Notes: generated by a model from the letters alone, not told the origin. DNA of 64,000 nucleotides from Candidatus Wolfebacteria bacterium (GCA_024654025.1 JANLIR010000002.1:168959-232958), one strand, 5' to 3'; shown: positions 16,768-43,206, counted from the stretch's first letter. Program-made: numbers and translations.

Positions 16768-17199
16768 ATGCAAACAAAAAAAATTACAGCAGAATATATT
16801 AGGGGCTTTATTGAGGGCGTGGGAACTTTTACTTTCACAACCTCGTCACGGGGTTTCAATAAAAAGGTTAAAATACCAACTTTTCAATTAAGAATGAATA
16901 TTCGAGATAAACGGTTAATTGAATTGATTAAAGGACATCTCGGACTTAAAAATAGGGTTTATATGTATCATTATCCGGGAACTGATGGCGCAAAACGAGG
17001 GCCACAAGCGATGTTAATAGTCCGAGAAATAGGTAATCTGAAAAATATAATCATCCCTTTCTTTTACGATAAGCTGGTTGGGTATAAAGCAGCCCAATTT
17101 AATAAGTGGCTTGAAAGAATAGGTAAAGACTCGGAAGTGCCAGAGGGATTTAAGATTCTATACCGTCTTCATAAATCCGGTTGGTTTTCAAAGAAATAG
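16768..17199 (+). CDS. free-standing LAGLIDADG homing endonuclease (single-motif type)
   Basis: AEYIRGFIEGVGTFTF is LAGLIDADG-like. 143 aa. Confidence 0.7.
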   Translation: MQTKKITAEYIRGFIEGVGTFTFTTSSRGFNKKVKIPTFQLRMNIRDKRLIELIKGHLGLKNRVYMYHYPGTDGAKRGPQAMLIVREIGNLKNIIIPFFYDKLVGYKAAQFNKWLERIGKDSEVPEGFKILYRLHKSGWFSKK

Positions 17200-17483: not shown

Positions 17484-18137
17484 CTAATAGGACGCGAAAA
17501 TACCCTTTGCCCACCCCCGGATTTTTAAAGATAGCCCAACATTACAGATGTAGATTTCAAAAGTTCCATAAGGAAGGCCCTCTTTTTTGGATTTTGTGGC
17601 TCTTTTTACTGAGAGTTTGAAAAACTGCTTTAAAGGGATGCCGGAAATTTCCGACCAGTATTTTTCTGTTCCCCGATGATCAAGGTGGGGATAGATATAA
17701 ATATGCCCCCGGAATTTCTGTTCCGGAACCTCACAAACATCCCTAAAAAAGGCCATCATTAACCTAACTATATTCGGGTCGCTGTTTGAGAACCGGACAA
17801 GGCCTTTTTGGGTTTTCCCACACCCTGCCCAATACAAAACCGAGCCAATTAGCCAAAGCTCACTTCTAGTTATTTTCTTTACCTGCTTTTGCGCTTGGTC
17901 GATAAGGTTTTCTCGTGTAGCTGTTTCCCGAGCCAGTCTGGTTGCGCGTCTTTTTTCCACTACCGAAAGCTTTACGGCGCGCTTTGATAGCGTTTTCTCC
18001 TGGTCTTTAGTTAGCGCGATGTTGCGGACCCATAAGCTCGCGCTACTTTTTGAAACGTTTAAGTTTTTCGCGATCTCGTTCAGAGAGTAACCATAAGCTC
18101 GGAGTTCTCGCGCTTTTTGTTTTTCAGCCTGCTTCAT
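17484..18137 (-). CDS. HTH-domain protein with degenerate LAGLIDADG-like C-terminal domain
   Basis: N-terminal YSLNEIAKNLNVSKSSASLWVRNI (HTH). C-terminal LWLIGSVLYWAGCGKTQKGLVRFSNSDPNIVRLMMAFF resembles homing-endonuclease cores. Confidence 0.5.
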   Translation of the reverse strand: MKQAEKQKARELRAYGYSLNEIAKNLNVSKSSASLWVRNIALTKDQEKTLSKRAVKLSVVEKRRATRLARETATRENLIDQAQKQVKKITRSELWLIGSVLYWAGCGKTQKGLVRFSNSDPNIVRLMMAFFRDVCEVPEQKFRGHIYIYPHLDHRGTEKYWSEISGIPLKQFFKLSVKRATKSKKEGLPYGTFEIYICNVGLSLKIRGWAKGIFASY

Positions 18138-19184: not shown

Positions 19185-19206
19185 CTCCTTATTATAGCAA
19201 AAAAAG

Positions 19207-19278
19207 TGCGAGTGGCAGGGATCGAACCTGCGACGGCCGTCTTATAAGGGCGGTGCTCTACCACTGAGCTACACTCGC
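19207..19278 (-). tRNA. tRNA-Ile(UAU)
   Basis: GCGAGTG TA GCTC AGTGGTA GAGC A CCGCC CTTATAA GACGG CCGTC GCAGG TTCGATC CCTGC CACTCGC A. One C-A mismatch in the anticodon stem. Confidence 0.75.
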
Positions 19279-19394: not shown

Positions 19395-20333
19395 CTACTT
19401 CAAAGTCGTAATCGGCCTGCTTTGGACAATATAAAATTTATTTTTTTCAAAAGCCCATTCAATGTCCTGCGGTTTTTTATAATGATTTTCTATATTTTGG
19501 CATATTTGTGCCAACTGTAAAATATATTTGTCGGCCAGTTTTTGTTTTTCTTGCTTGGCTTTCGGCACGATAGTTTCTTTAACTCCGCTTCCGTCTCGCA
19601 CAACCATCATTTCCTGCTTTGAAATGTTTGAGTCCAAAATATTTCTGTTTGTTTTGTGAATTACGTAAGTGTCAGGAGTGATTTTGCCCCCGACAATCGC
19701 TTCGCCCAATCCATACCCGGCCTCAATTACCATCTGGTCATAATCTTCGGTTACTGGGTGTACCGTAAAACAGATTCCGGAAATTTCCGATTGAATCATT
19801 TTCTGCACCACAACTGCCACTAAAACTTTTTGCTTATGAAGTTTTTTTTCAAACCGATAAAAAATCGCGCGTGGAGTAAATAGCGATGCCCAGCATTTTT
19901 TAACATTTTCCAAAAGATTTCCCTTTGAAGTATTTAAATAACTTTCCAATTCTCCGGCCCAGGAAGCGGTAGAAGAGTCCTCGGCTGTGGCTGAACTACG
20001 TACTGCCACATATTTTGTTTTCAGCTTGGCGAATTCAGTTAAAATTTCTTTGGCGATATCTTTGGGAAATTTAGCGTTTAAAATTAAGCTCCTGATTTCT
20101 TCAGAGACCTTTTCAATGGAGTTTATATCTTTGACTTTTACTTTGTGGAGCTGGGCTTCTATCTCAACGTCAATATCGGTTTCTTCCAAAAACCTATCAA
20201 AAGCCCCAGCCAAAACCACAAATCCGGGCGGCACCGGAATTCCGGATTTTATCATTTCGCCAAGCGAAGCTCCCTTGCCTCCGGCAATAGCAGCGTCTTT
20301 TTTTGAAAGTTTGTTAATTTTTTTAATAAACAT
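19395..20333 (-). CDS. PEP synthase/PPDK N-terminal ATP-grasp (nucleotide-binding) domain protein
   Basis: AGGKGASLGEM, VAVRSSATAEDS, QDIEWAFEKNKFYIVQSRPIT. Ends where full-length enzymes continue. Confidence 0.85.
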   Translation of the reverse strand: MFIKKINKLSKKDAAIAGGKGASLGEMIKSGIPVPPGFVVLAGAFDRFLEETDIDVEIEAQLHKVKVKDINSIEKVSEEIRSLILNAKFPKDIAKEILTEFAKLKTKYVAVRSSATAEDSSTASWAGELESYLNTSKGNLLENVKKCWASLFTPRAIFYRFEKKLHKQKVLVAVVVQKMIQSEISGICFTVHPVTEDYDQMVIEAGYGLGEAIVGGKITPDTYVIHKTNRNILDSNISKQEMMVVRDGSGVKETIVPKAKQEKQKLADKYILQLAQICQNIENHYKKPQDIEWAFEKNKFYIVQSRPITTLK

Positions 20334-20366
20334 AATCTACATTTTAACAGCCCAAACCGCTTATAT

Positions 20367-21965
20367 CTACCTTCCCAAATGCAAAACTTTTCTATGATGA
20401 GGATTTGATGTTTTTTGGGCTTGAACCGGAATTATCTTAAAATTATTTTTTGATTTTTTTATCACCGTCACCTTCCCGGAATTTGCGTCAACCTCAACCA
20501 GGTCGCCGTCTTTTAATGATTTTGTAGCTGTCTTTGCTCCGATAATGCATGGTGTTTTAAGTTCTCGAGCCACAATCGCCGCATGGCACAATAAACCTCC
20601 CTCATCGGTGACAACGGCGGAAGCTTTTTTTATTAAAGGCACAAAATCCGGCGTTGTCATAGAAGTAACTAAAACGTCTCCCTCTTCAAATTTTCCTTTT
20701 TCTGACCTTGGGTCAAAAATAATTTTAGCTTTTCCTTTGACCCTTCCTTTATATGCAGTAAACCCTTTTAGTATTTGATTTTTTGAGGTTTCTATCTTCT
20801 CGTGCCAGTCTTCTTTTTTGACGCCGGTCCATACTTTAATCGCGTTTCCGACTTGTTTTATGGTGGCTCCTTTTAATATTCTTTCTCTGACTATTTTTTT
20901 TGGATTATTTTTTCCCAAAAGACCCTCAATAATTTCTTTTTTGGAAAGAAGCCAAAAATCGTCCGCTTCTTCCAATTTCAATCTGTCTATAATTTCAAGG
21001 TAAAAATCCCAGCAGTGCACGAAGTAGTTATAATAATTTTCTTCATCGCAGTTGCGGTAGCCCATCATTTTTCTGAGCCAGAAAATATGTTTTGTTATTT
21101 TGGAATGTTTTTTTAGTTCGGATAAAATTTTCCCCACTATTTTTCGGCTCTTTTCTTCTTCATTATTTATTTTTCTTATTTCGGCTTCGGCATCGGTTTT
21201 TAAGTGTTTCAAAAACCGTTTGTCAATGTCCCCAAGCTTGTAATAATTGCCGTCGTGTTTAAAACTGCATCCGCCGAATTTATACCAATGGCCGAAAATA
21301 ATTTTTTTAATCTTTTTGTCCCGCCAGTTTTTTGAAGTCCTGTATATTTTTTGTATCTTAATTAATTTTTTCAAAAAATTCAGCCGCTCGGTCTTAACCA
21401 TTGAATTTATGCCCACAGATGAAAGAGTTTGCAGAATTTTTCCAACATCTTTTATTTTCAGCTCAGAAGAAAATTTGTCCAATTCTTTTTTGACTAGGCG
21501 GGGAAGAAGATTAACCAAGTCGTAGACGACGTAATAGCCGGCCAGCGCCCGGCGGTGATAATAACCGTGCTTTTCCAATATTTTTACCAGATCGCCGTTT
21601 GTCCTGCTTTTGTAAAAACCGGCACCTTTGGTAAATATTTGATCGGTTATTTTTTTAAAATCCGCGTAAGATTTGAAAAAATATTTTTCCAGCCTGCTGA
21701 AATAATTTTTATCTTTCAGTAAATCGCCGGCGACTCCTTCCAGAAATTCGTCTTCAATTTTACTGTCCCAATAAATAAAAAATTCCCTGGGATTGCCCGA
21801 TCTGGTAGAAACGTATTTAACCCAATTGCCGTAATTTCTTTTATAAGGATCTCCTTTCCAATTTAAAATAGTTACTTTTAAAGTTTCTTCTTCAGAAAGA
21901 ATATCCAGTACTCTGACCATTTTTTCAATGTTATCCGGATTGGAAAAGGGTTTATACCTGCTCAT
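20367..21965 (-). CDS. RPH/PEP-synthase-like protein: unknown helical N-terminal region plus C-terminal phosphohistidine swivel domain
   Basis: C-terminal VLVTSMTTPDFVPLIKKASAVVTDEGGLLCHAAIVARELKTPCIIG (PEP-utilizer mobile domain). DDFWLLSKKEI resembles the DIF(Y/F)L..EEL segment of RPH-like enzymes. Confidence 0.75.
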   Translation of the reverse strand: MSRYKPFSNPDNIEKMVRVLDILSEEETLKVTILNWKGDPYKRNYGNWVKYVSTRSGNPREFFIYWDSKIEDEFLEGVAGDLLKDKNYFSRLEKYFFKSYADFKKITDQIFTKGAGFYKSRTNGDLVKILEKHGYYHRRALAGYYVVYDLVNLLPRLVKKELDKFSSELKIKDVGKILQTLSSVGINSMVKTERLNFLKKLIKIQKIYRTSKNWRDKKIKKIIFGHWYKFGGCSFKHDGNYYKLGDIDKRFLKHLKTDAEAEIRKINNEEEKSRKIVGKILSELKKHSKITKHIFWLRKMMGYRNCDEENYYNYFVHCWDFYLEIIDRLKLEEADDFWLLSKKEIIEGLLGKNNPKKIVRERILKGATIKQVGNAIKVWTGVKKEDWHEKIETSKNQILKGFTAYKGRVKGKAKIIFDPRSEKGKFEEGDVLVTSMTTPDFVPLIKKASAVVTDEGGLLCHAAIVARELKTPCIIGAKTATKSLKDGDLVEVDANSGKVTVIKKSKNNFKIIPVQAQKTSNPHHRKVLHLGR

Positions 21966-22285
21966 TTCAAAATTTTTACGATTCCTTTGTTTAAGTCCAT
22001 TTCAACCCTGTCGCCGTCTTTTAAAATTTTCGTGGCGTTTTTCGTACCCACAATACAAGGAATGCCGAATTCCCGAGCTATAATTGCAGGATGAGAGGTG
22101 ATTCCTCCTCTATCTGTGATTATGGCAGCCGCTTTTATGATAATTGCCGCGAAAGAAGGATTGGTTAATTCCGCAACTAAAATTTCCCCTTCTTTAAAAT
22201 TTTTAAAATCCTTGGGATTTTTAATGATTTTTACTCTGCCCTTGGCTTTCCCTTTGTTTGCAACGATCCCTTTTATTTCTTTCAT
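21962..22285 (-). CDS. stand-alone PEP-utilizer mobile (phosphohistidine swivel) domain protein
   Basis: ILVAELTNPSFAAIIIKAAAIITDRGGITSHPAIIAREFGIPCIVG. 107 aa. ATGA overlaps at both ends. Confidence 0.8.
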   Translation of the reverse strand: MKEIKGIVANKGKAKGRVKIIKNPKDFKNFKEGEILVAELTNPSFAAIIIKAAAIITDRGGITSHPAIIAREFGIPCIVGTKNATKILKDGDRVEMDLNKGIVKILK

Positions 22286-23346
22286 AAATTGTAAATTTTT
22301 TTCAAGTATGCCACCCCTACGTATTTCTCATACTCCTTTTTATTTTTCGGATAGGACATTTTTATAAAACCTGTTTTTAAGCGCTTATCTTTTATTTTTT
22401 TAACCATTTCTTTATCCGGACGCCAATTTAAGCCAGCCAAATTAAATAATCCCCTTAATTCATAAGCTTGCTGTTCTAAAAATTTCAATTTTGTTTTTTC
22501 AAAATTATATCCCTTTGCCTCAAGATAAATTTCTCCGGTTTTCTCCGCTATTTGCCGGATTAATTTTTCAATTTTAAGGCCAGTCGCTGGTTTTCCGTTC
22601 AACAAAACCAAATATTTAAACAATTTTTTGGCATAGTCCTTATCCGCTAAAATATGAGTAGTTACAAAACGCATTTTGAGTCTTGTGTCTTTGTATAAAA
22701 CCAAAATCATTATTTTTTTAAATTTAAAATTTTTTAATTTAGGCCACAGCTCTTTAGGAAACAAATCAAGGTAATTCTTTATAAGCAGAGAATGATTTTT
22801 ATATTTGTAAGGACCTTCGTTAAAATAACCATATTCGGTTGAATAATCGTTGTAAAGCGCGTGGTTATACATCGCTAAAATACCGCTTAATTTAGATATA
22901 TTTGCCTTTTCTTTTTCGCCGGCAACTTTCAATTTTAGGATAATTCTGCTGATTTCTTCTTTTGTTCTTAAAACACAACTTTTTTCATTAAATAGATTTT
23001 TATCTTTGCTTATCCAAAGCATGTACTTTATGAAAAAGTCAAAAATAGTTTTTGCTTTTTCTTTGTCATAATTAAAATAAGCGCCCATATTCACAAGCGT
23101 ATAAAATATATATTTTATGGAGCCATAATTAGAAAGGTTCGCTAAAATTTTCTTTTGGGATATTTTTTTGCTTTCAATTATCTTAATGGCGGAATAAATT
23201 TTATCCATCCAAAGTTTGAAATATAAAGGATAAAATTTAAAGGCATTGAATGGCAGATGAGATGCCGGGTCGTGATCGCCGAAAGTAAAATCCTTTACGG
23301 CATCAGAATAATCCCGTATCCATTTATTTGGATTCCAATTATTCAT
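22282..23346 (-). CDS. hypothetical protein (operon member)
   Basis: 354-aa Lys/Tyr-rich ORF, translationally coupled on both sides. No family recognised. Confidence 0.55.
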   Translation of the reverse strand: MNNWNPNKWIRDYSDAVKDFTFGDHDPASHLPFNAFKFYPLYFKLWMDKIYSAIKIIESKKISQKKILANLSNYGSIKYIFYTLVNMGAYFNYDKEKAKTIFDFFIKYMLWISKDKNLFNEKSCVLRTKEEISRIILKLKVAGEKEKANISKLSGILAMYNHALYNDYSTEYGYFNEGPYKYKNHSLLIKNYLDLFPKELWPKLKNFKFKKIMILVLYKDTRLKMRFVTTHILADKDYAKKLFKYLVLLNGKPATGLKIEKLIRQIAEKTGEIYLEAKGYNFEKTKLKFLEQQAYELRGLFNLAGLNWRPDKEMVKKIKDKRLKTGFIKMSYPKNKKEYEKYVGVAYLKKIYNL

Positions 23347-24196
23347 TTTGTTCTTCTATTTTTACCTCAAATTCTTTTCCGCGCCATACAATTTTTATTT
23401 GATCTCCGCCGATTGTTATGGTCGCGCCTTCCGTGGTGTCTGTAAGCTTTTCATCAGAAATTTCCTTAAAACTTTTAGGAGAAACTTCTCCCGTGATCAG
23501 TTTCAAAATAGCCGCGTCTAAATCCCAGCGGTGGGAAACAGCGCCAATGACCACAGGCCTTTCAGGGAAATATTTTTTTGCAAATTCATGAAGCCTGTCT
23601 AATCCAAATAAGTACTCTTCCGCTACGGTTTCCGGATTTGGACCCTCTGATCCTTCTATGTTTTCTCCTTTGGTATGAGACCATTCTTCAAAAGCTCCTT
23701 CTTCGTTATCGCCATATTTTTTGTCCAAATAATCGTAATATTCAAAATTGTCTTTTTTAGCGTCCCAACGGCGGTCAAATGAAAGTTCTTTAACAAAAAG
23801 AGGAAAATCAACCACTATTTTTTTGTTTTTATTTTCGTCGCTCTCAACTATTTCAATGATTTTTTTAATTGCGGATGAAATTGATCCGGTTTTTCCTGCT
23901 TGGTTTAAAATTTCCTCTTTGATTAAAACCAACACGGTTTCATCGTTTTCATACAACGTTTTCAATCCTTCGCCTGCCGCAATGGCCGTTGATTTGGTTC
24001 TTGCGAGCTCTGTGGCCCCTCCAATATAAATTAAAGCTCTATCAGGAGCGTTATCTATAATTTCTTTTATTTCCCTAGCTTTTTGTTCCTTGGCTTTTTC
24101 AACGCCTTTTTCGCTAAGCCCGGGATGAGTTTGCGATTCCGGGTTTTTCTCATCCGGCTTATCCGAATGTCTTAAAATAAAAAACTTCTTTTCCAT
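23339..24196 (-). CDS. histidine phosphatase superfamily (PGAM-like) protein
   Basis: FILRHSDK (RHG-type motif), GLSEKG, ARTKSTAIA, GAVSHRWD (second His). Confidence 0.6.
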   Translation of the reverse strand: MEKKFFILRHSDKPDEKNPESQTHPGLSEKGVEKAKEQKAREIKEIIDNAPDRALIYIGGATELARTKSTAIAAGEGLKTLYENDETVLVLIKEEILNQAGKTGSISSAIKKIIEIVESDENKNKKIVVDFPLFVKELSFDRRWDAKKDNFEYYDYLDKKYGDNEEGAFEEWSHTKGENIEGSEGPNPETVAEEYLFGLDRLHEFAKKYFPERPVVIGAVSHRWDLDAAILKLITGEVSPKSFKEISDEKLTDTTEGATITIGGDQIKIVWRGKEFEVKIEEQNE

Positions 24197-24230
24197 TGAT
24201 AAAATTATACAGAAATCCGGCGGTTAATAA

Positions 24231-24255
24231 AACAGGTCGCCTGAGGCGACCTGTT
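24231..24255 (-). terminator. ftsH terminator
   Basis: AACAGGTCGCC tga GGCGACCTGTT with a T-rich tail on the minus strand. Confidence 0.75.
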
Positions 24256-42874: not shown

Positions 42875-42890
42875 TTTTTGTTTTTTATAG

Positions 42891-43206
42891 TGGAAGCGGA
42901 GGGATTGAACCCTCGTCCGCAAATTTTTTTAAAAAAAATCTACAAGCTTAGTTCGTGAGAACAATTTTGCTCCTTATTCTCGTTTCGGATATCGGAGCGT
43001 TTCTCCGAAACAATCCCAATTTATTACACCAGCTAATCCCTTATTGGGAGTCAGAGGCTGATGGCTTAAGCTTTAACCGATTGGTTTAGGCGAAAGCGAA
43101 TGCCGGTTTATTGGCAATTATTTGTTGGTTCGTTGATTAGCGAGGTGACGCGCCATCCTCGGCCTGCATTTTTTTAAGAACAATCTGCGTCGAAACTTAC
43201 ACTCCC
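42891..43206 (-). ncRNA. ssrA: tmRNA (ssrA), predicted tag ANKPAFAFA
   Basis: 5' GGGAGTGTAAGTTTCGACGCAG pairs with 3' ...GGACGAGGGTTCAATCCCTCCGCTTCCA, giving acceptor GGGAGTG/CGCTTCC with G3-U70. PK1-like GCAGGCCGAGG..CCTCGC. Tag ORF GCC AAT AAA CCG GCA TTC GCT TTC GCC TAA. Confidence 0.8.

What the first reader, a model, noticed from the sequence alone, without database searches (positions are those of the whole stretch)
19395..24196. Five-gene coupled operon: split RPH/PEP-synthase-like phosphotransferase, an extra stand-alone phosphohistidine swivel domain, an unknown protein and a histidine phosphatase
The minus-strand gene order is as follows.
- PGAM-like histidine phosphatase (23339-24196; RHS, RT..T and SH motifs).
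- 354-aa unknown protein (22282-23346).
- 107-aa protein that is only a PEP-utilizer mobile domain (GGITSHPAII).
- 532-aa protein with an unknown helical N-terminal region plus a second swivel domain (GGLLCHAAIV).
- 312-aa protein that is only the PPDK/PEP-synthase ATP-grasp domain.

Start/stop overlaps of 8, 4 and 4 nt indicate translational coupling. In rifampicin phosphotransferases and PEP synthase-like kinases, one polypeptide carries the ATP-grasp, substrate-binding and swivel-His domains. Here the parts are split and permuted, a second free swivel domain is added, and a histidine phosphatase and an orphan protein are co-encoded.

This looks like a multi-component His-phosphorelay or small-molecule (or protein) kinase system of unknown substrate. 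I do not know of a described system with this composition.
Basis: partly seen in the sequence, partly recalled or inferred. Interest (0 to 1): 0.75.

Follow-up and report, generated by a model that had tools for sequence, protein, structure and literature searches.

The report
Split dikinase operon with phosphatase partner
A tiny-genome (CPR, Wolfebacteria) bacterium carries a PEP-synthase-type phosphate-transfer enzyme encoded as separate genes: one ATP-binding subunit, two phosphate-carrying modules, a substrate domain unlike any catalogued family or solved structure, and a probable phosphatase that accompanies such systems in nearly every relative examined; what it phosphorylates is unknown.

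Summary
The five minus-strand genes, their motifs and the 8/4/4-nt overlaps are exactly as described. The interpretation needs re-arranging.

- **Core operon.** It has four genes: His-phosphatase-like (285 aa), unknown "X" protein (354 aa), free swivel domain (107 aa) and ATP-grasp (312 aa). It recurs in all 11 distinct X loci with upstream sequence, in at least three named CPR lineages.
- **X belongs to the dikinase.** X is fused to the swivel or the ATP-grasp in 19 of 160 family members. The free swivel is therefore X's cognate phosphate carrier, not an extra part.
- **The 532-aa gene is the add-on.** Three relatives, including the closest strain, lack it. Together with the ATP-grasp it reproduces the published two-component dikinase layout (HpeHI/CreHI/PpsAB), and it keeps the RPH "GYR" phosphotransfer motif.
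- **X is uncatalogued.** It matches no Pfam family, no solved structure and no RPH domain.
- **The phosphatase assignment is probable, not proven.** The R-H-R-H residues are invariant, fold matches are weak, and proteins at the same position elsewhere pass Pfam's His_Phos_1 threshold.
- **Excluded.** A frameshifted ppsA is ruled out. No sign of a mobile or catalogued defence element was found.

Substrates, direction and the phosphatase's target are unknown. Verdict: a new variant of a known kind, of moderate to high interest.

The parts
24232..24254 (-). Terminator-like hairpin plus U-run after ftsH. It marks the upstream boundary of the operon.
   Evidence: dG -19.9 kcal/mol, z -5.9, and 0 of 200 shuffles fold as well. 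Sequence read.
24204..24209 (-). TATAAT -10-like hexamer 7 nt upstream of the first start codon. Inferred promoter; the transcript would be nearly leaderless.
   Evidence: Sequence. Inference only.
23339..24196 (-). 285-aa divergent histidine-phosphatase-like protein (PH). Invariant R9, H10 (24167-24169), R66, E137 and H222 (23531-23533).
22282..23346 (-). 354-aa 'X' protein: an uncatalogued second-substrate domain of the dikinase. D167 (22846-22848) is invariant across 60 diverse members.
21962..22285 (-). 107-aa stand-alone phosphohistidine swivel domain. Catalytic H65 (22091-22093) lies in GGITSH, with a PpsA-type Thr at position -2.
   Evidence: PF00391 at 1.2e-27. It clusters with X-associated swivels: 92-93% identity to L013, L014 and L007, and 63% to the fused X-swivel proteins.
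20367..21965 (-). 532-aa protein: an RPH-type substrate-binding domain plus a C-terminal swivel. H461 is at 20583-20585, and the GYRN motif has R304 at 21054-21056. It is a strain-specific insertion together with the 33-nt spacer (about 20334-21963).
   Evidence: PF00391 at residues 426-497. It aligns with Listeria RPH 5fbs residues 631-866, including R666. It is absent from L013, L014 and L007. Family context.
19395..20333 (-). 312-aa stand-alone ATP-grasp (PPDK_N) subunit. It is the only one in the 64-kb window.
   Evidence: PF01326 at 1.8e-105. The best NCBIfam matches are the N-terminal third of PEP synthase. It is the only grasp hit among the window's ORFs.

Best explanation
The operon encodes a dikinase of the PEP-synthase/RPH type, built from separate polypeptides. 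Two substrate modules share one ATP-grasp subunit.

**Steps inferred from PpsA, RPH and HpeHI chemistry**
1. The 312-aa ATP-grasp binds ATP.
2. A swivel histidine attacks the beta-phosphate, and the gamma-phosphate is lost as Pi.
3. The phospho-swivel then docks on a second-substrate domain.

**Module A (core, conserved)**
- The free 107-aa swivel (H65) shuttles between the ATP-grasp and the 354-aa X protein.
- X is a previously uncatalogued second-substrate domain.

**Module B (strain-specific add-on)**
- The swivel (H461) is tethered to an RPH-like binding domain that carries the GYR(N) phosphotransfer motif.
- With the same ATP-grasp it forms an HpeHI-like two-component dikinase.

**The 285-aa protein**
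- It is a divergent histidine-phosphatase-fold enzyme (R9, H10, R66, H222), translationally coupled to X.
- It removes the phosphoryl group through its own phospho-His intermediate.
- I favour removal from the module's phosphorylated product, after whatever conversion X performs (about 40%).
- The alternative is a SixA-like reset of the phospho-swivel (about 35%).

**Shown versus inferred**
- Shown here: the domain identities, the fusions, the conserved gene neighbourhood and purifying selection.
- Inferred: the phosphotransfer route.
- Unknown: the substrates, the direction of transfer and the phosphatase's target. There is a weak lean towards sugars or cell-wall sugars.
For: - **Domain identities.** The RPH residue R666, in the motif 'GYRE', aligns with the invariant R304 in 'GYRN'. 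Its role in RPH is described in PMC4844700.
- **X belongs to the dikinase.** Of 160 family proteins, 13 are swivel-X, 3 are X-swivel, 2 are Z-swivel-X and 1 is X-ATP-grasp.
- **Conserved neighbourhood.** PH-X-swivel-grasp, or grasp-PH-X-swivel, occurs in L013, L014, L007, L001/L018, L015, L016 and L008/L019. All 11 distinct X loci with upstream sequence have a His_Phos-type gene directly upstream of X.
- **Carrier specificity.** Swivel sequences cluster according to the partner domain.
- **Module B elsewhere.** The 532-type protein occurs with an ATP-grasp and a His_Phos-type gene in L010 and L011, and with an ATP-grasp in L023.
- **Published precedents.** Two-component dikinases are described in PMC12167813. 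A His_Phos_1 enzyme (SixA) that removes phosphate from a phospho-His carrier is described in PMC7948535.
- **Module-matched phosphatases.** L004 has three His_Phos-like paralogues, each preceding a different swivel protein. L022 has a Metallophos phosphoesterase in that position instead.
- **Functional genes.** dN/dS is 0.05-0.17.
Against: - There are no biochemical data, and no substrate can be named.
- A co-translated kinase and product phosphatase would form a futile cycle unless a conversion step lies between them.
- Some X-plus-swivel loci show no ATP-grasp within the sequence held: L017, L003 and L022. Z-swivel-X fusions also exist. X could therefore be a phosphoryl-donor site, or one of two small-molecule sites, rather than the acceptor.
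- Sharing of one ATP-grasp by both modules is inferred only from gene content.
Confidence: 0.6

Rival explanations
1. Hub-and-spoke phosphorelay. The phosphate passes from ATP to the swivel His and then to His10 of the phosphatase-fold protein. That protein is the true terminal transferase, or a mutase-like enzyme. X and the 532-aa N-terminal domain would mainly act as docking or specificity scaffolds.
For: - Histidine-phosphatase-fold enzymes work through a phospho-His intermediate (established knowledge of the family).
- The PH gene is the partner most tightly linked to X. It overlaps the X gene by 8 nt and sits directly upstream of X in 11 of 11 distinct loci.
- His_Phos-like genes also accompany GHKL-ATPase-swivel fusions in L003. 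They therefore follow the swivel domain whichever ATPase feeds it.
Against: - No PH fusion to X, the swivel or the ATP-grasp was found among 160 X-family proteins.
- L022 has a Metallophos enzyme in the same position. That suggests plain hydrolysis rather than a relay.
- RPH and HpeHI need no such partner (PMC4844700, PMC12167813).
Confidence: 0.12
2. Xenobiotic or antibiotic inactivation island. X and the 532-aa protein would be RPH-like resistance kinases for host- or community-derived toxic small molecules, and they diversify quickly for that reason.
For: - The 532-aa protein is homologous to the RPH drug-binding apex region.
- The RPH family is widespread, and some members act on antibiotics (PMC4844700, PMC12167813).
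- The locus shows cassette-like turnover. The 532-aa gene is inserted in this strain, and dS jumps from 0.01-0.02 to 0.5-0.6 at the X/swivel junction.
- Related loci carry 3-4 paralogous swivel proteins.
- AbiE and HicB genes lie nearby in L003 and L021.
Against: - A co-encoded phosphatase would undo the inactivation.
- There are no PADLOC hits.
- X is absent from phage, plasmid and IMG/VR collections.
- X is under strong purifying selection and has a highly conserved pocket-like set of residues, which is more typical of a housekeeping substrate.
Confidence: 0.15
3. Central-metabolism enzyme in disguise. X, the swivel and the ATP-grasp would be this lineage's PEP synthase or PPDK-like enzyme. 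X would replace the PEP/pyruvate barrel without being homologous to it. The His_Phos-like partner would act as a phosphoglycerate-mutase-like enzyme.
For: - The ATP-grasp and both swivels score best against genuine PEP synthase models.
- The free swivel has the PpsA-type GGxTSH motif (consensus given in PMC12167813).
- In one clade the swivel gene overlaps the start of murB, which acts downstream of PEP-dependent MurA.
- dPGM belongs to the His_Phos_1 family.
Against: - X shares no detectable similarity with PEP-utilizers_C.
- Several divergent His_Phos paralogues and 3-4 acceptor modules per locus do not fit a single central reaction.
- A close relative of the 532-type locus encodes an ordinary cofactor-independent PGM next door.
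- The PH family is far from dPGM.
Confidence: 0.08
4. Artefact: a frameshifted or decayed ordinary ppsA or rph, or a chance juxtaposition of genes.
For: - The ATP-grasp and the swivel-containing proteins are each partial matches to the full-length PpsA and RPH models.
- In one relative (L007) the X gene is broken at a poly-A run.
Against: - The gene order is permuted relative to ppsA, and no PEP-utilizers_C domain is present.
- Every gene has intact full-length homologues in many contigs.
- dN/dS is 0.05-0.17.
- The neighbourhood is conserved in at least three named CPR lineages.
Confidence: 0.01

Closest known systems
Two-component small-molecule dikinases HpeHI, CreHI and phenylphosphate synthase PpsAB (PMC12167813)
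   Same: - They have a separate ATP-grasp subunit of about 310-340 aa.
- The second subunit combines an RPH-like substrate-binding domain with a C-terminal swivel His.
- The two genes are adjacent, with the binding-plus-swivel gene first, as for the 532-aa and 312-aa genes here.
   Different: - The 532-aa family matches the PRK08296-type models only in the swivel region.
- Its substrate is unknown, and there is no aromatic-catabolism context.
- Module A splits the enzyme one step further: the swivel is a free 107-aa protein and the substrate domain (X) is unrelated.
- A His_Phos-like gene accompanies the system in nearly every related locus.
Rifampin phosphotransferase RPH (PDB 5fbs, 5hv1; PMC4844700)
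   Same: - It uses the same three functional parts: ATP-grasp, substrate-binding domain and C-terminal swivel His.
- The 532-aa protein aligns with RPH residues 631-866, including catalytic R666.
   Different: - RPH is a single chain.
- E667 is replaced by an invariant Asn here.
- The first ~260 residues of the 532-aa protein have no detectable match.
- NCBIfam scores are far below the RPH cut-offs.
PEP synthase PpsA / pyruvate phosphate dikinase
   Same: - The ATP-grasp and both swivels score best against PpsA models.
- The free swivel has the PpsA-type GGxTSH motif.
   Different: - There is no PEP/pyruvate-binding barrel.
- The parts lie on separate polypeptides in a different order.
- All scores are below the family cut-offs.
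SixA acting on NPr of the nitrogen PTS (PMC7948535)
   Same: A histidine-phosphatase-superfamily enzyme acts on the phospho-His of a phosphocarrier. In the PTS that carrier is charged by Enzyme I, which contains a swivel domain (own knowledge). This is a precedent for the 'reset' role.
   Different: - SixA is about 160 aa and is a recognisable His_Phos_1 member.
- The 285-aa family is much larger, carries a helical insertion and is not recognised by Pfam.
- The target here would be a swivel domain, not an HPr-fold protein.
- None of this has been tested.
Glucan water dikinase with the SEX4/LSF2 phosphatases of plant starch metabolism (GWD: PMC13553574; the phosphatases from own knowledge)
   Same: A dikinase with a swivel His phosphorylates a substrate, and a dedicated phosphatase later removes the phosphate. 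The domain order is also permuted relative to PpsA.
   Different: This is an analogy only. No carbohydrate-binding modules were detected, the phosphatases belong to a different fold, and no glucan context was shown.

Membership tests
PEP synthase (TIGR01418 / NF005057) | N-terminal PPDK_N ATP-grasp domain | tested here: met
   The 312-aa protein matches PF01326 at 1.8e-105 and aligns with positions 6-338 of NF005057.
PEP synthase (TIGR01418 / NF005057) | C-terminal PEP/pyruvate-binding barrel (PEP-utilizers_C), with all three domains on one chain and a score above the family cut-off | tested here: not met
   None of the five proteins hits PEP-utilizers_C. The best score is 356 bits against a cut-off of 598. 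The gene order is permuted.
Rifampin phosphotransferase (NF041857) | Single chain with ATP-grasp, RIF-binding domain and swivel, scoring above the cut-off | tested here: not met
   Scores are 295 and 74 bits against a cut-off of 999, and the parts are on separate polypeptides.
Rifampin phosphotransferase (NF041857) | RIF-binding-domain apex with catalytic Arg666/Glu667 | tested here: inconclusive
   The 532-aa family aligns over RPH residues 631-866. R304 corresponds to R666, but E667 is an invariant Asn. The N-terminal ~260 aa have no match.
Two-component dikinases (HpeHI/CreHI/PpsAB type) | Separate ATP-grasp subunit, plus a subunit carrying an RPH-like binding domain and a C-terminal swivel His, encoded by adjacent genes | tested here: met
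   The 532-aa and 312-aa genes are adjacent with a 33-nt spacer. The same pair is adjacent in L023 and L011, and is separated only by a His_Phos_1 gene in L010.
Two-component dikinases (HpeHI/CreHI/PpsAB type) | ATP-dependent phosphorylation of a phenolic substrate that requires both components | not testable with these tools
   This needs enzyme assays. There is no aromatic-catabolism gene context around the operon.
Histidine phosphatase superfamily, branch 1 (PF00300) | Catalytic core: RHG-type Arg-His, a second Arg and a second His | tested here: met
   R9, H10, R66 and H222 are invariant in 9 family members that are 37-90% identical to the window protein.
Histidine phosphatase superfamily, branch 1 (PF00300) | Significant match to the family profile | tested here: not met
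   There is no Pfam, NCBIfam or PDB hit for the window protein or its family profile. One member, P0021, reaches only E 0.006. hhalign against partner proteins that do pass the threshold gives a probability of 1.5%.
Histidine phosphatase superfamily, branch 1 (PF00300) | The alpha/beta fold of the superfamily | tested here: inconclusive
PTS Enzyme I | Swivel His domain together with a PEP-binding barrel and an HPr-binding subdomain | tested here: not met
   Only the swivel region matches, at E 1e-8 to 1e-12.
Known anti-phage defence systems (PADLOC 2.0) | A match of any component to a defence-system model | tested here: not met
   There are no hits apart from one JukA match at E 0.007, 13.8 bits.

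The most novel reading that the evidence does not exclude
Parcubacteria and other CPR bacteria may possess a modular 'hub-and-spoke' phosphotransfer system that has not been described. One ATPase, either an ATP-grasp or in some loci a GHKL ATPase, would charge interchangeable free or tethered swivel-His carriers. These carriers would serve a varied set of substrate modules (X, RPH-like, Z and others). Each module would be paired with its own histidine-phosphatase-fold subunit, acting as an obligatory catalytic partner, for example as a His-to-His relay terminus or a proofreading hydrolase. That would amount to an ATP-driven counterpart of the PTS logic, used for scavenging or converting host-derived metabolites.
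Probability: 0.18. Interest if true: 0.85.

Novelty: new variant of a known kind. Interest (0 to 1): 0.6.

Why it matters
Swivel-histidine dikinases (PpsA, PPDK, RPH, GWD, HpeHI) are textbook examples of long-range domain motion, and I found no description of one with a free-standing carrier domain. A natural system in which the ATP-grasp, the carrier and the substrate domain are three separate proteins would allow each phosphotransfer step to be studied on its own, and would allow components to be mixed.

The X family has 411 cluster representatives, no Pfam entry and no structural relative. It is an uncharacterised substrate domain in organisms whose metabolism is largely inferred from missing pathways. 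Finding its substrate could reveal what these episymbionts take up or modify.

A histidine-phosphatase-fold partner accompanies nearly every such system examined. This points to a rule of how these systems work (reset, proofreading or relay) that is not known for any characterised dikinase.

Tried and rejected
- **Frameshifted ppsA or rph.** Rejected. The order is permuted, there is no PEP-utilizers_C domain, homologues are intact and dN/dS is low.
- **Defence system or mobile element.** No support. PADLOC finds nothing. There are no tblastn hits in phages or plasmids, and no IMG/VR relatives of X or the 532-aa family.
- **Direct sequence proof that the 285-aa protein is a His_Phos member.** Not obtained. 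phmmer and the family profile against the PDB and hhalign against His_Phos_1 neighbours that pass Pfam's threshold were not significant. Only sub-threshold enrichment was seen.
- **The Z domain of the Z-swivel-X fusions as an RPH-like or 532-like domain.** hhalign probability is 1%.
- **Technical dead ends.**
  - The afdb50 fold library was unavailable.
  - The 60-sequence X alignment was too diverse for a locus scan.
  - The consensus promoter/terminator scan was uninformative and did not list the ftsH hairpin, which I found by reading the sequence.
  - Cluster look-ups returned no names or taxonomy.
  - An exact look-up of the NCBI copy of the 285-aa protein found no contig.
- **Literature.** Five full-text searches found no description of this system.
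Full report
**1. The observation**

All five ORFs lie on the minus strand at the stated coordinates:
- 24196-23339 (285 aa)
- 23346-22282 (354 aa)
- 22285-21962 (107 aa)
- 21965-20367 (532 aa)
- 20333-19395 (312 aa)

The overlaps are 8, 4 and 4 nt. A 33-nt spacer precedes the last gene.

Pfam gives these matches:

| Protein | Pfam match | E-value |
|---|---|---|
| 312 aa | PPDK_N | 1.8e-105 |
| 107 aa | PF00391, the swivel domain | 1.2e-27 |
| 532 aa, residues 426-497 | PF00391 | 5.9e-26 |
| 354 aa and 285 aa | none | - |

NCBIfam also finds nothing for the 354-aa and 285-aa proteins.

The quoted motifs are present. H65 lies in GGITSH and H461 in GGLLCH. The 285-aa protein has R9-H10-S, R66-T and S221-H222.

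The operon has clear boundaries.
- Upstream, ftsH ends with a strong hairpin plus U-run (dG -19.9 kcal/mol, z -5.9).
- A TATAAT hexamer lies 7 nt before the first ATG.
- Downstream lies a tRNA-Ile(UAU) gene.

The window comes from a Candidatus Wolfebacteria MAG. The 285-aa protein is identical to NCBI locus NUV83_01010.

**2. What the 354-aa protein is**

Its close family is tiny: 11 hits among 5.8 billion sequences. Two of those hits are fusions of this domain to a C-terminal swivel.

An exhaustive profile search finds 411 cluster representatives. I classified 160 family proteins by architecture:

| Architecture | Count |
|---|---|
| X alone | 134 |
| swivel-X | 13 |
| X-swivel | 3 |
| X-ATP-grasp | 1 |
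| scored as X-X, of which two are long enough to be tandem copies | 4 |

Being fused in either order to the swivel, and once to the ATP-grasp, is the behaviour expected of the third (second-substrate) domain of a dikinase. I call it X.

X appears to be an uncatalogued domain.
- The AF2 model is confident (pLDDT 88, pTM 0.88).
- The family profile hits nothing in the PDB.
- None of 60 members has a recurrent Pfam family.
- hhalign against the 532-aa family gives a probability of 0.1%.

**3. The conserved unit**

I collected related loci by exact-protein look-ups and by genome and metagenome scans. I annotated them with HMMs built here. They show a four-gene core:
- PH-X-swivel-grasp in L013, L014 and L007.
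- His_Phos_1-X-swivel-grasp in a Saccharibacteria MAG (L008/L019).
- grasp-PH-X-swivel, followed by murB, in L001/L018, L015 and L016.
- His_Phos_1 followed by a fused X-swivel protein in L003 and L009.

All 11 distinct X loci with upstream sequence carry a histidine-phosphatase-type gene directly upstream of X. The ATP-grasp is adjacent in 8 of those 11.

Swivel sequences sort by partner type.
- The window's free swivel is 92-93% identical to the free swivels of L013, L014 and L007.
- It is 63% identical to the swivel of the fused X-swivel proteins.
- It is only 51-52% identical to the 532-aa protein's own swivel.

The free swivel is therefore X's cognate carrier, not a spare part.

**4. The 532-aa gene is the add-on**

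L013, whose PH and X genes differ from the window by dS 0.011 and 0.020, lacks the 532-aa gene. So do L014 and L007.

blastn places the insertion precisely between the swivel stop codon and the ATP-grasp start (window about 21963-20334).

dS jumps to 0.6 in the swivel gene and 0.5 in the ATP-grasp gene. The tract from the swivel to the ATP-grasp was therefore exchanged by recombination.

The 532-aa family has its own conserved contexts:
- L010: 532-type, His_Phos_1 (28.7 bits, above Pfam's cut-off), ATP-grasp.
- L011: PH, 532-type, a fused ATP-grasp-swivel, another swivel protein. Its flanks are syntenic with the window (ftsH upstream; DedA, a 217-aa ORF and a LAGLIDADG ORF downstream).
- L012: four swivel proteins, a His_Phos_1 gene and an ATP-grasp.
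- L023: 532-type, ATP-grasp, another swivel protein.

The family profile aligns with Listeria RPH (5fbs) over residues 631-866. The alignment includes 'GYRE', where R666 and E667 are the residues shown to be critical for the second phosphotransfer (PMC4844700). The window family has an invariant 'GYRN' (R304, N305).

An ATP-grasp subunit plus a binding-domain-plus-swivel subunit, in this gene order, is the published two-component dikinase architecture of HpeHI, CreHI and PpsAB (PMC12167813). That half of the finding is a new member of a known kind.

**5. The 285-aa protein**

No significant sequence match exists, either for the single protein or for the family profile.

The evidence that it belongs to the histidine-phosphatase superfamily is as follows:
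- R9, H10, R66 and H222 are invariant, and so is E137.
- The N-terminal pattern, 'FFILRHS...LSEKG..KA...IGGATELARTKSTA', mirrors the His_Phos_1 signature seen in neighbours that Pfam does recognise.
- Foldseek ranks dPGMs first, although E is 0.05 or worse.
- One family member reaches PF00300 at E 0.006.
- Proteins occupying the same operon position pass Pfam's threshold in L003 (36 bits), L008 (31), L009 (31), L010 (29), L012 (24) and L004 (23).

I put the assignment at about 0.8. The AF2 model is only moderate (pLDDT 74) and is poor across the RH motif.

**6. Wider pattern**

Related CPR loci carry one ATP-grasp, one to three His_Phos-like genes and up to four swivel-bearing proteins with unrelated N-terminal domains (L004/L005, L012, L021).

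In L004, three His_Phos-like paralogues each precede a different swivel protein.

In L003 and L009 a GHKL ATPase (HATPase_c_3 plus a MORC S5 domain) is fused to a swivel. In L003 that operon also contains an RHG...TH His_Phos-like protein.

In L022 a Metallophos phosphoesterase (30.8 bits) sits beside a free swivel and a Z-swivel-X protein.

The phosphatase-type partner therefore follows the swivel modules, whichever ATPase or substrate domain they are paired with.

**7. Mechanism**

*Inferred from homology:*
1. The ATP-grasp pyrophosphorylates a swivel histidine.
2. The gamma-phosphate is released as Pi.
3. The phospho-swivel delivers the beta-phosphate to a substrate. The substrate is held either by X (through the free carrier) or by the RPH-like domain of the 532-aa protein (through its tethered carrier).

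Both modules would use the only ATP-grasp found in the 64-kb window.

*The phosphatase-fold protein* is translationally coupled to X and most likely removes the phosphoryl group. It could act on the module's product, which the module-matched paralogues and the Metallophos replacement favour. It could instead act on the phospho-swivel, which the SixA/NPr precedent (PMC7948535) and the futile-cycle argument favour.

*Unresolved points:*
- The substrate is unknown. Hints towards sugars or cell-wall sugars are weak. X has aromatic-rich invariant residues. TrmB regulators are present in L003 and L022. The swivel gene is coupled to murB in one clade. Glycoside hydrolases lie next to L010.
- The direction of transfer is unknown.
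- X could be a donor site rather than an acceptor site. L017, L003 and L022 show no ATP-grasp within the sequence held, and Z-swivel-X fusions exist.

**8. Rivals and exclusions**

- A frameshifted ppsA is excluded. There is no barrel domain, the order is permuted, homologues are intact and dN/dS is 0.05-0.17.
- A defence system or mobile element has no support.
- An antibiotic-kinase island, a disguised PEP synthase and a His-to-His relay remain possible, each at low probability.

**9. Novelty**

Five full-text literature searches found no description of a three-piece dikinase with a free swivel, of the X domain, or of a His_Phos partner for dikinases.

I rate this a new variant of a known kind. 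The phosphotransfer logic is familiar. The new elements are the free-carrier arrangement, the X domain, the apparent sharing of one ATP-grasp by two modules, and the conserved phosphatase-fold partner.

Noticed in passing
window 19206-19278 (-): A tRNA-Ile gene with anticodon TAT (UAU) lies directly downstream of the operon. Most bacteria decode AUA with a lysidine-modified CAU tRNA (own knowledge), so a UAU tRNA-Ile is uncommon and may say something about this lineage's decoding.
   Followed up: no
window 21963-20334, and window 22285-19395 compared with L013: Recombination mosaic. Against the closest strain (L013), PH and X have dS 0.011 and 0.020, whereas the swivel and ATP-grasp have dS 0.6 and 0.5. 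The 532-aa gene is inserted exactly between the swivel stop and the ATP-grasp start. The locus behaves like a cassette site.
   Followed up: yes
L003 5047-6315 (-); L009 13310-14590 (-): Proteins of 422-426 aa fuse a GHKL ATPase (HATPase_c_3 plus a MORC S5 domain) to a C-terminal swivel-His domain. Each is followed by an unknown protein of 369-387 aa. In L003 a 237-aa RHG...TH His_Phos-like protein follows as well. I do not know of a described ATPase of this type feeding a PEP-utilizer swivel.
   Followed up: partly
L004 6018-16873; L012 4976-13780; L021 5885-15493: Expanded loci carry three or four swivel-bearing proteins with unrelated N-terminal domains and a single ATP-grasp. L004 and L012 also carry His_Phos-like genes (three and one). 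In L004 each His_Phos-like gene precedes a swivel protein.
   Followed up: partly
L022 6618-10370: A Metallophos (calcineurin-like) phosphoesterase, rather than a His_Phos protein, sits next to a free swivel and a Z-swivel-X fusion. A TrmB-family regulator lies upstream, and one is also present in L003. This may be a non-homologous replacement of the phosphatase partner.
   Followed up: partly
window 16768-17199 (+); L011 14791-15222 (-): A free-standing LAGLIDADG homing-endonuclease ORF is kept at the same relative position in the window and in the syntenic locus L011, next to a conserved 217-aa ORF (window 17484-18137).
   Followed up: no
L007 1346-2411: The X gene of this relative is split into two ORFs at a poly-A run. 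This is either a frameshift pseudogene or a homopolymer sequencing error.
   Followed up: partly
L001 9399-10337; L015 4281-5219; L016 9369-10307: In one clade the free-swivel gene overlaps the start of murB by 4 nt. In L001 a Mur ligase and an ABC transporter lie upstream. This may be a functional link to peptidoglycan-precursor metabolism, or it may be coincidence.
   Followed up: partly
L023 3-1549: A cofactor-independent phosphoglycerate mutase fragment (assigned by eye from its ADHGNAD-type motif, not by an HMM) and a 93-aa GIY-YIG ORF lie directly upstream of a 532-type / ATP-grasp / swivel cassette.
   Followed up: no
window 42888-43206 (-): A tmRNA gene with the tag peptide ANKPAFAFA.
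   Followed up: no
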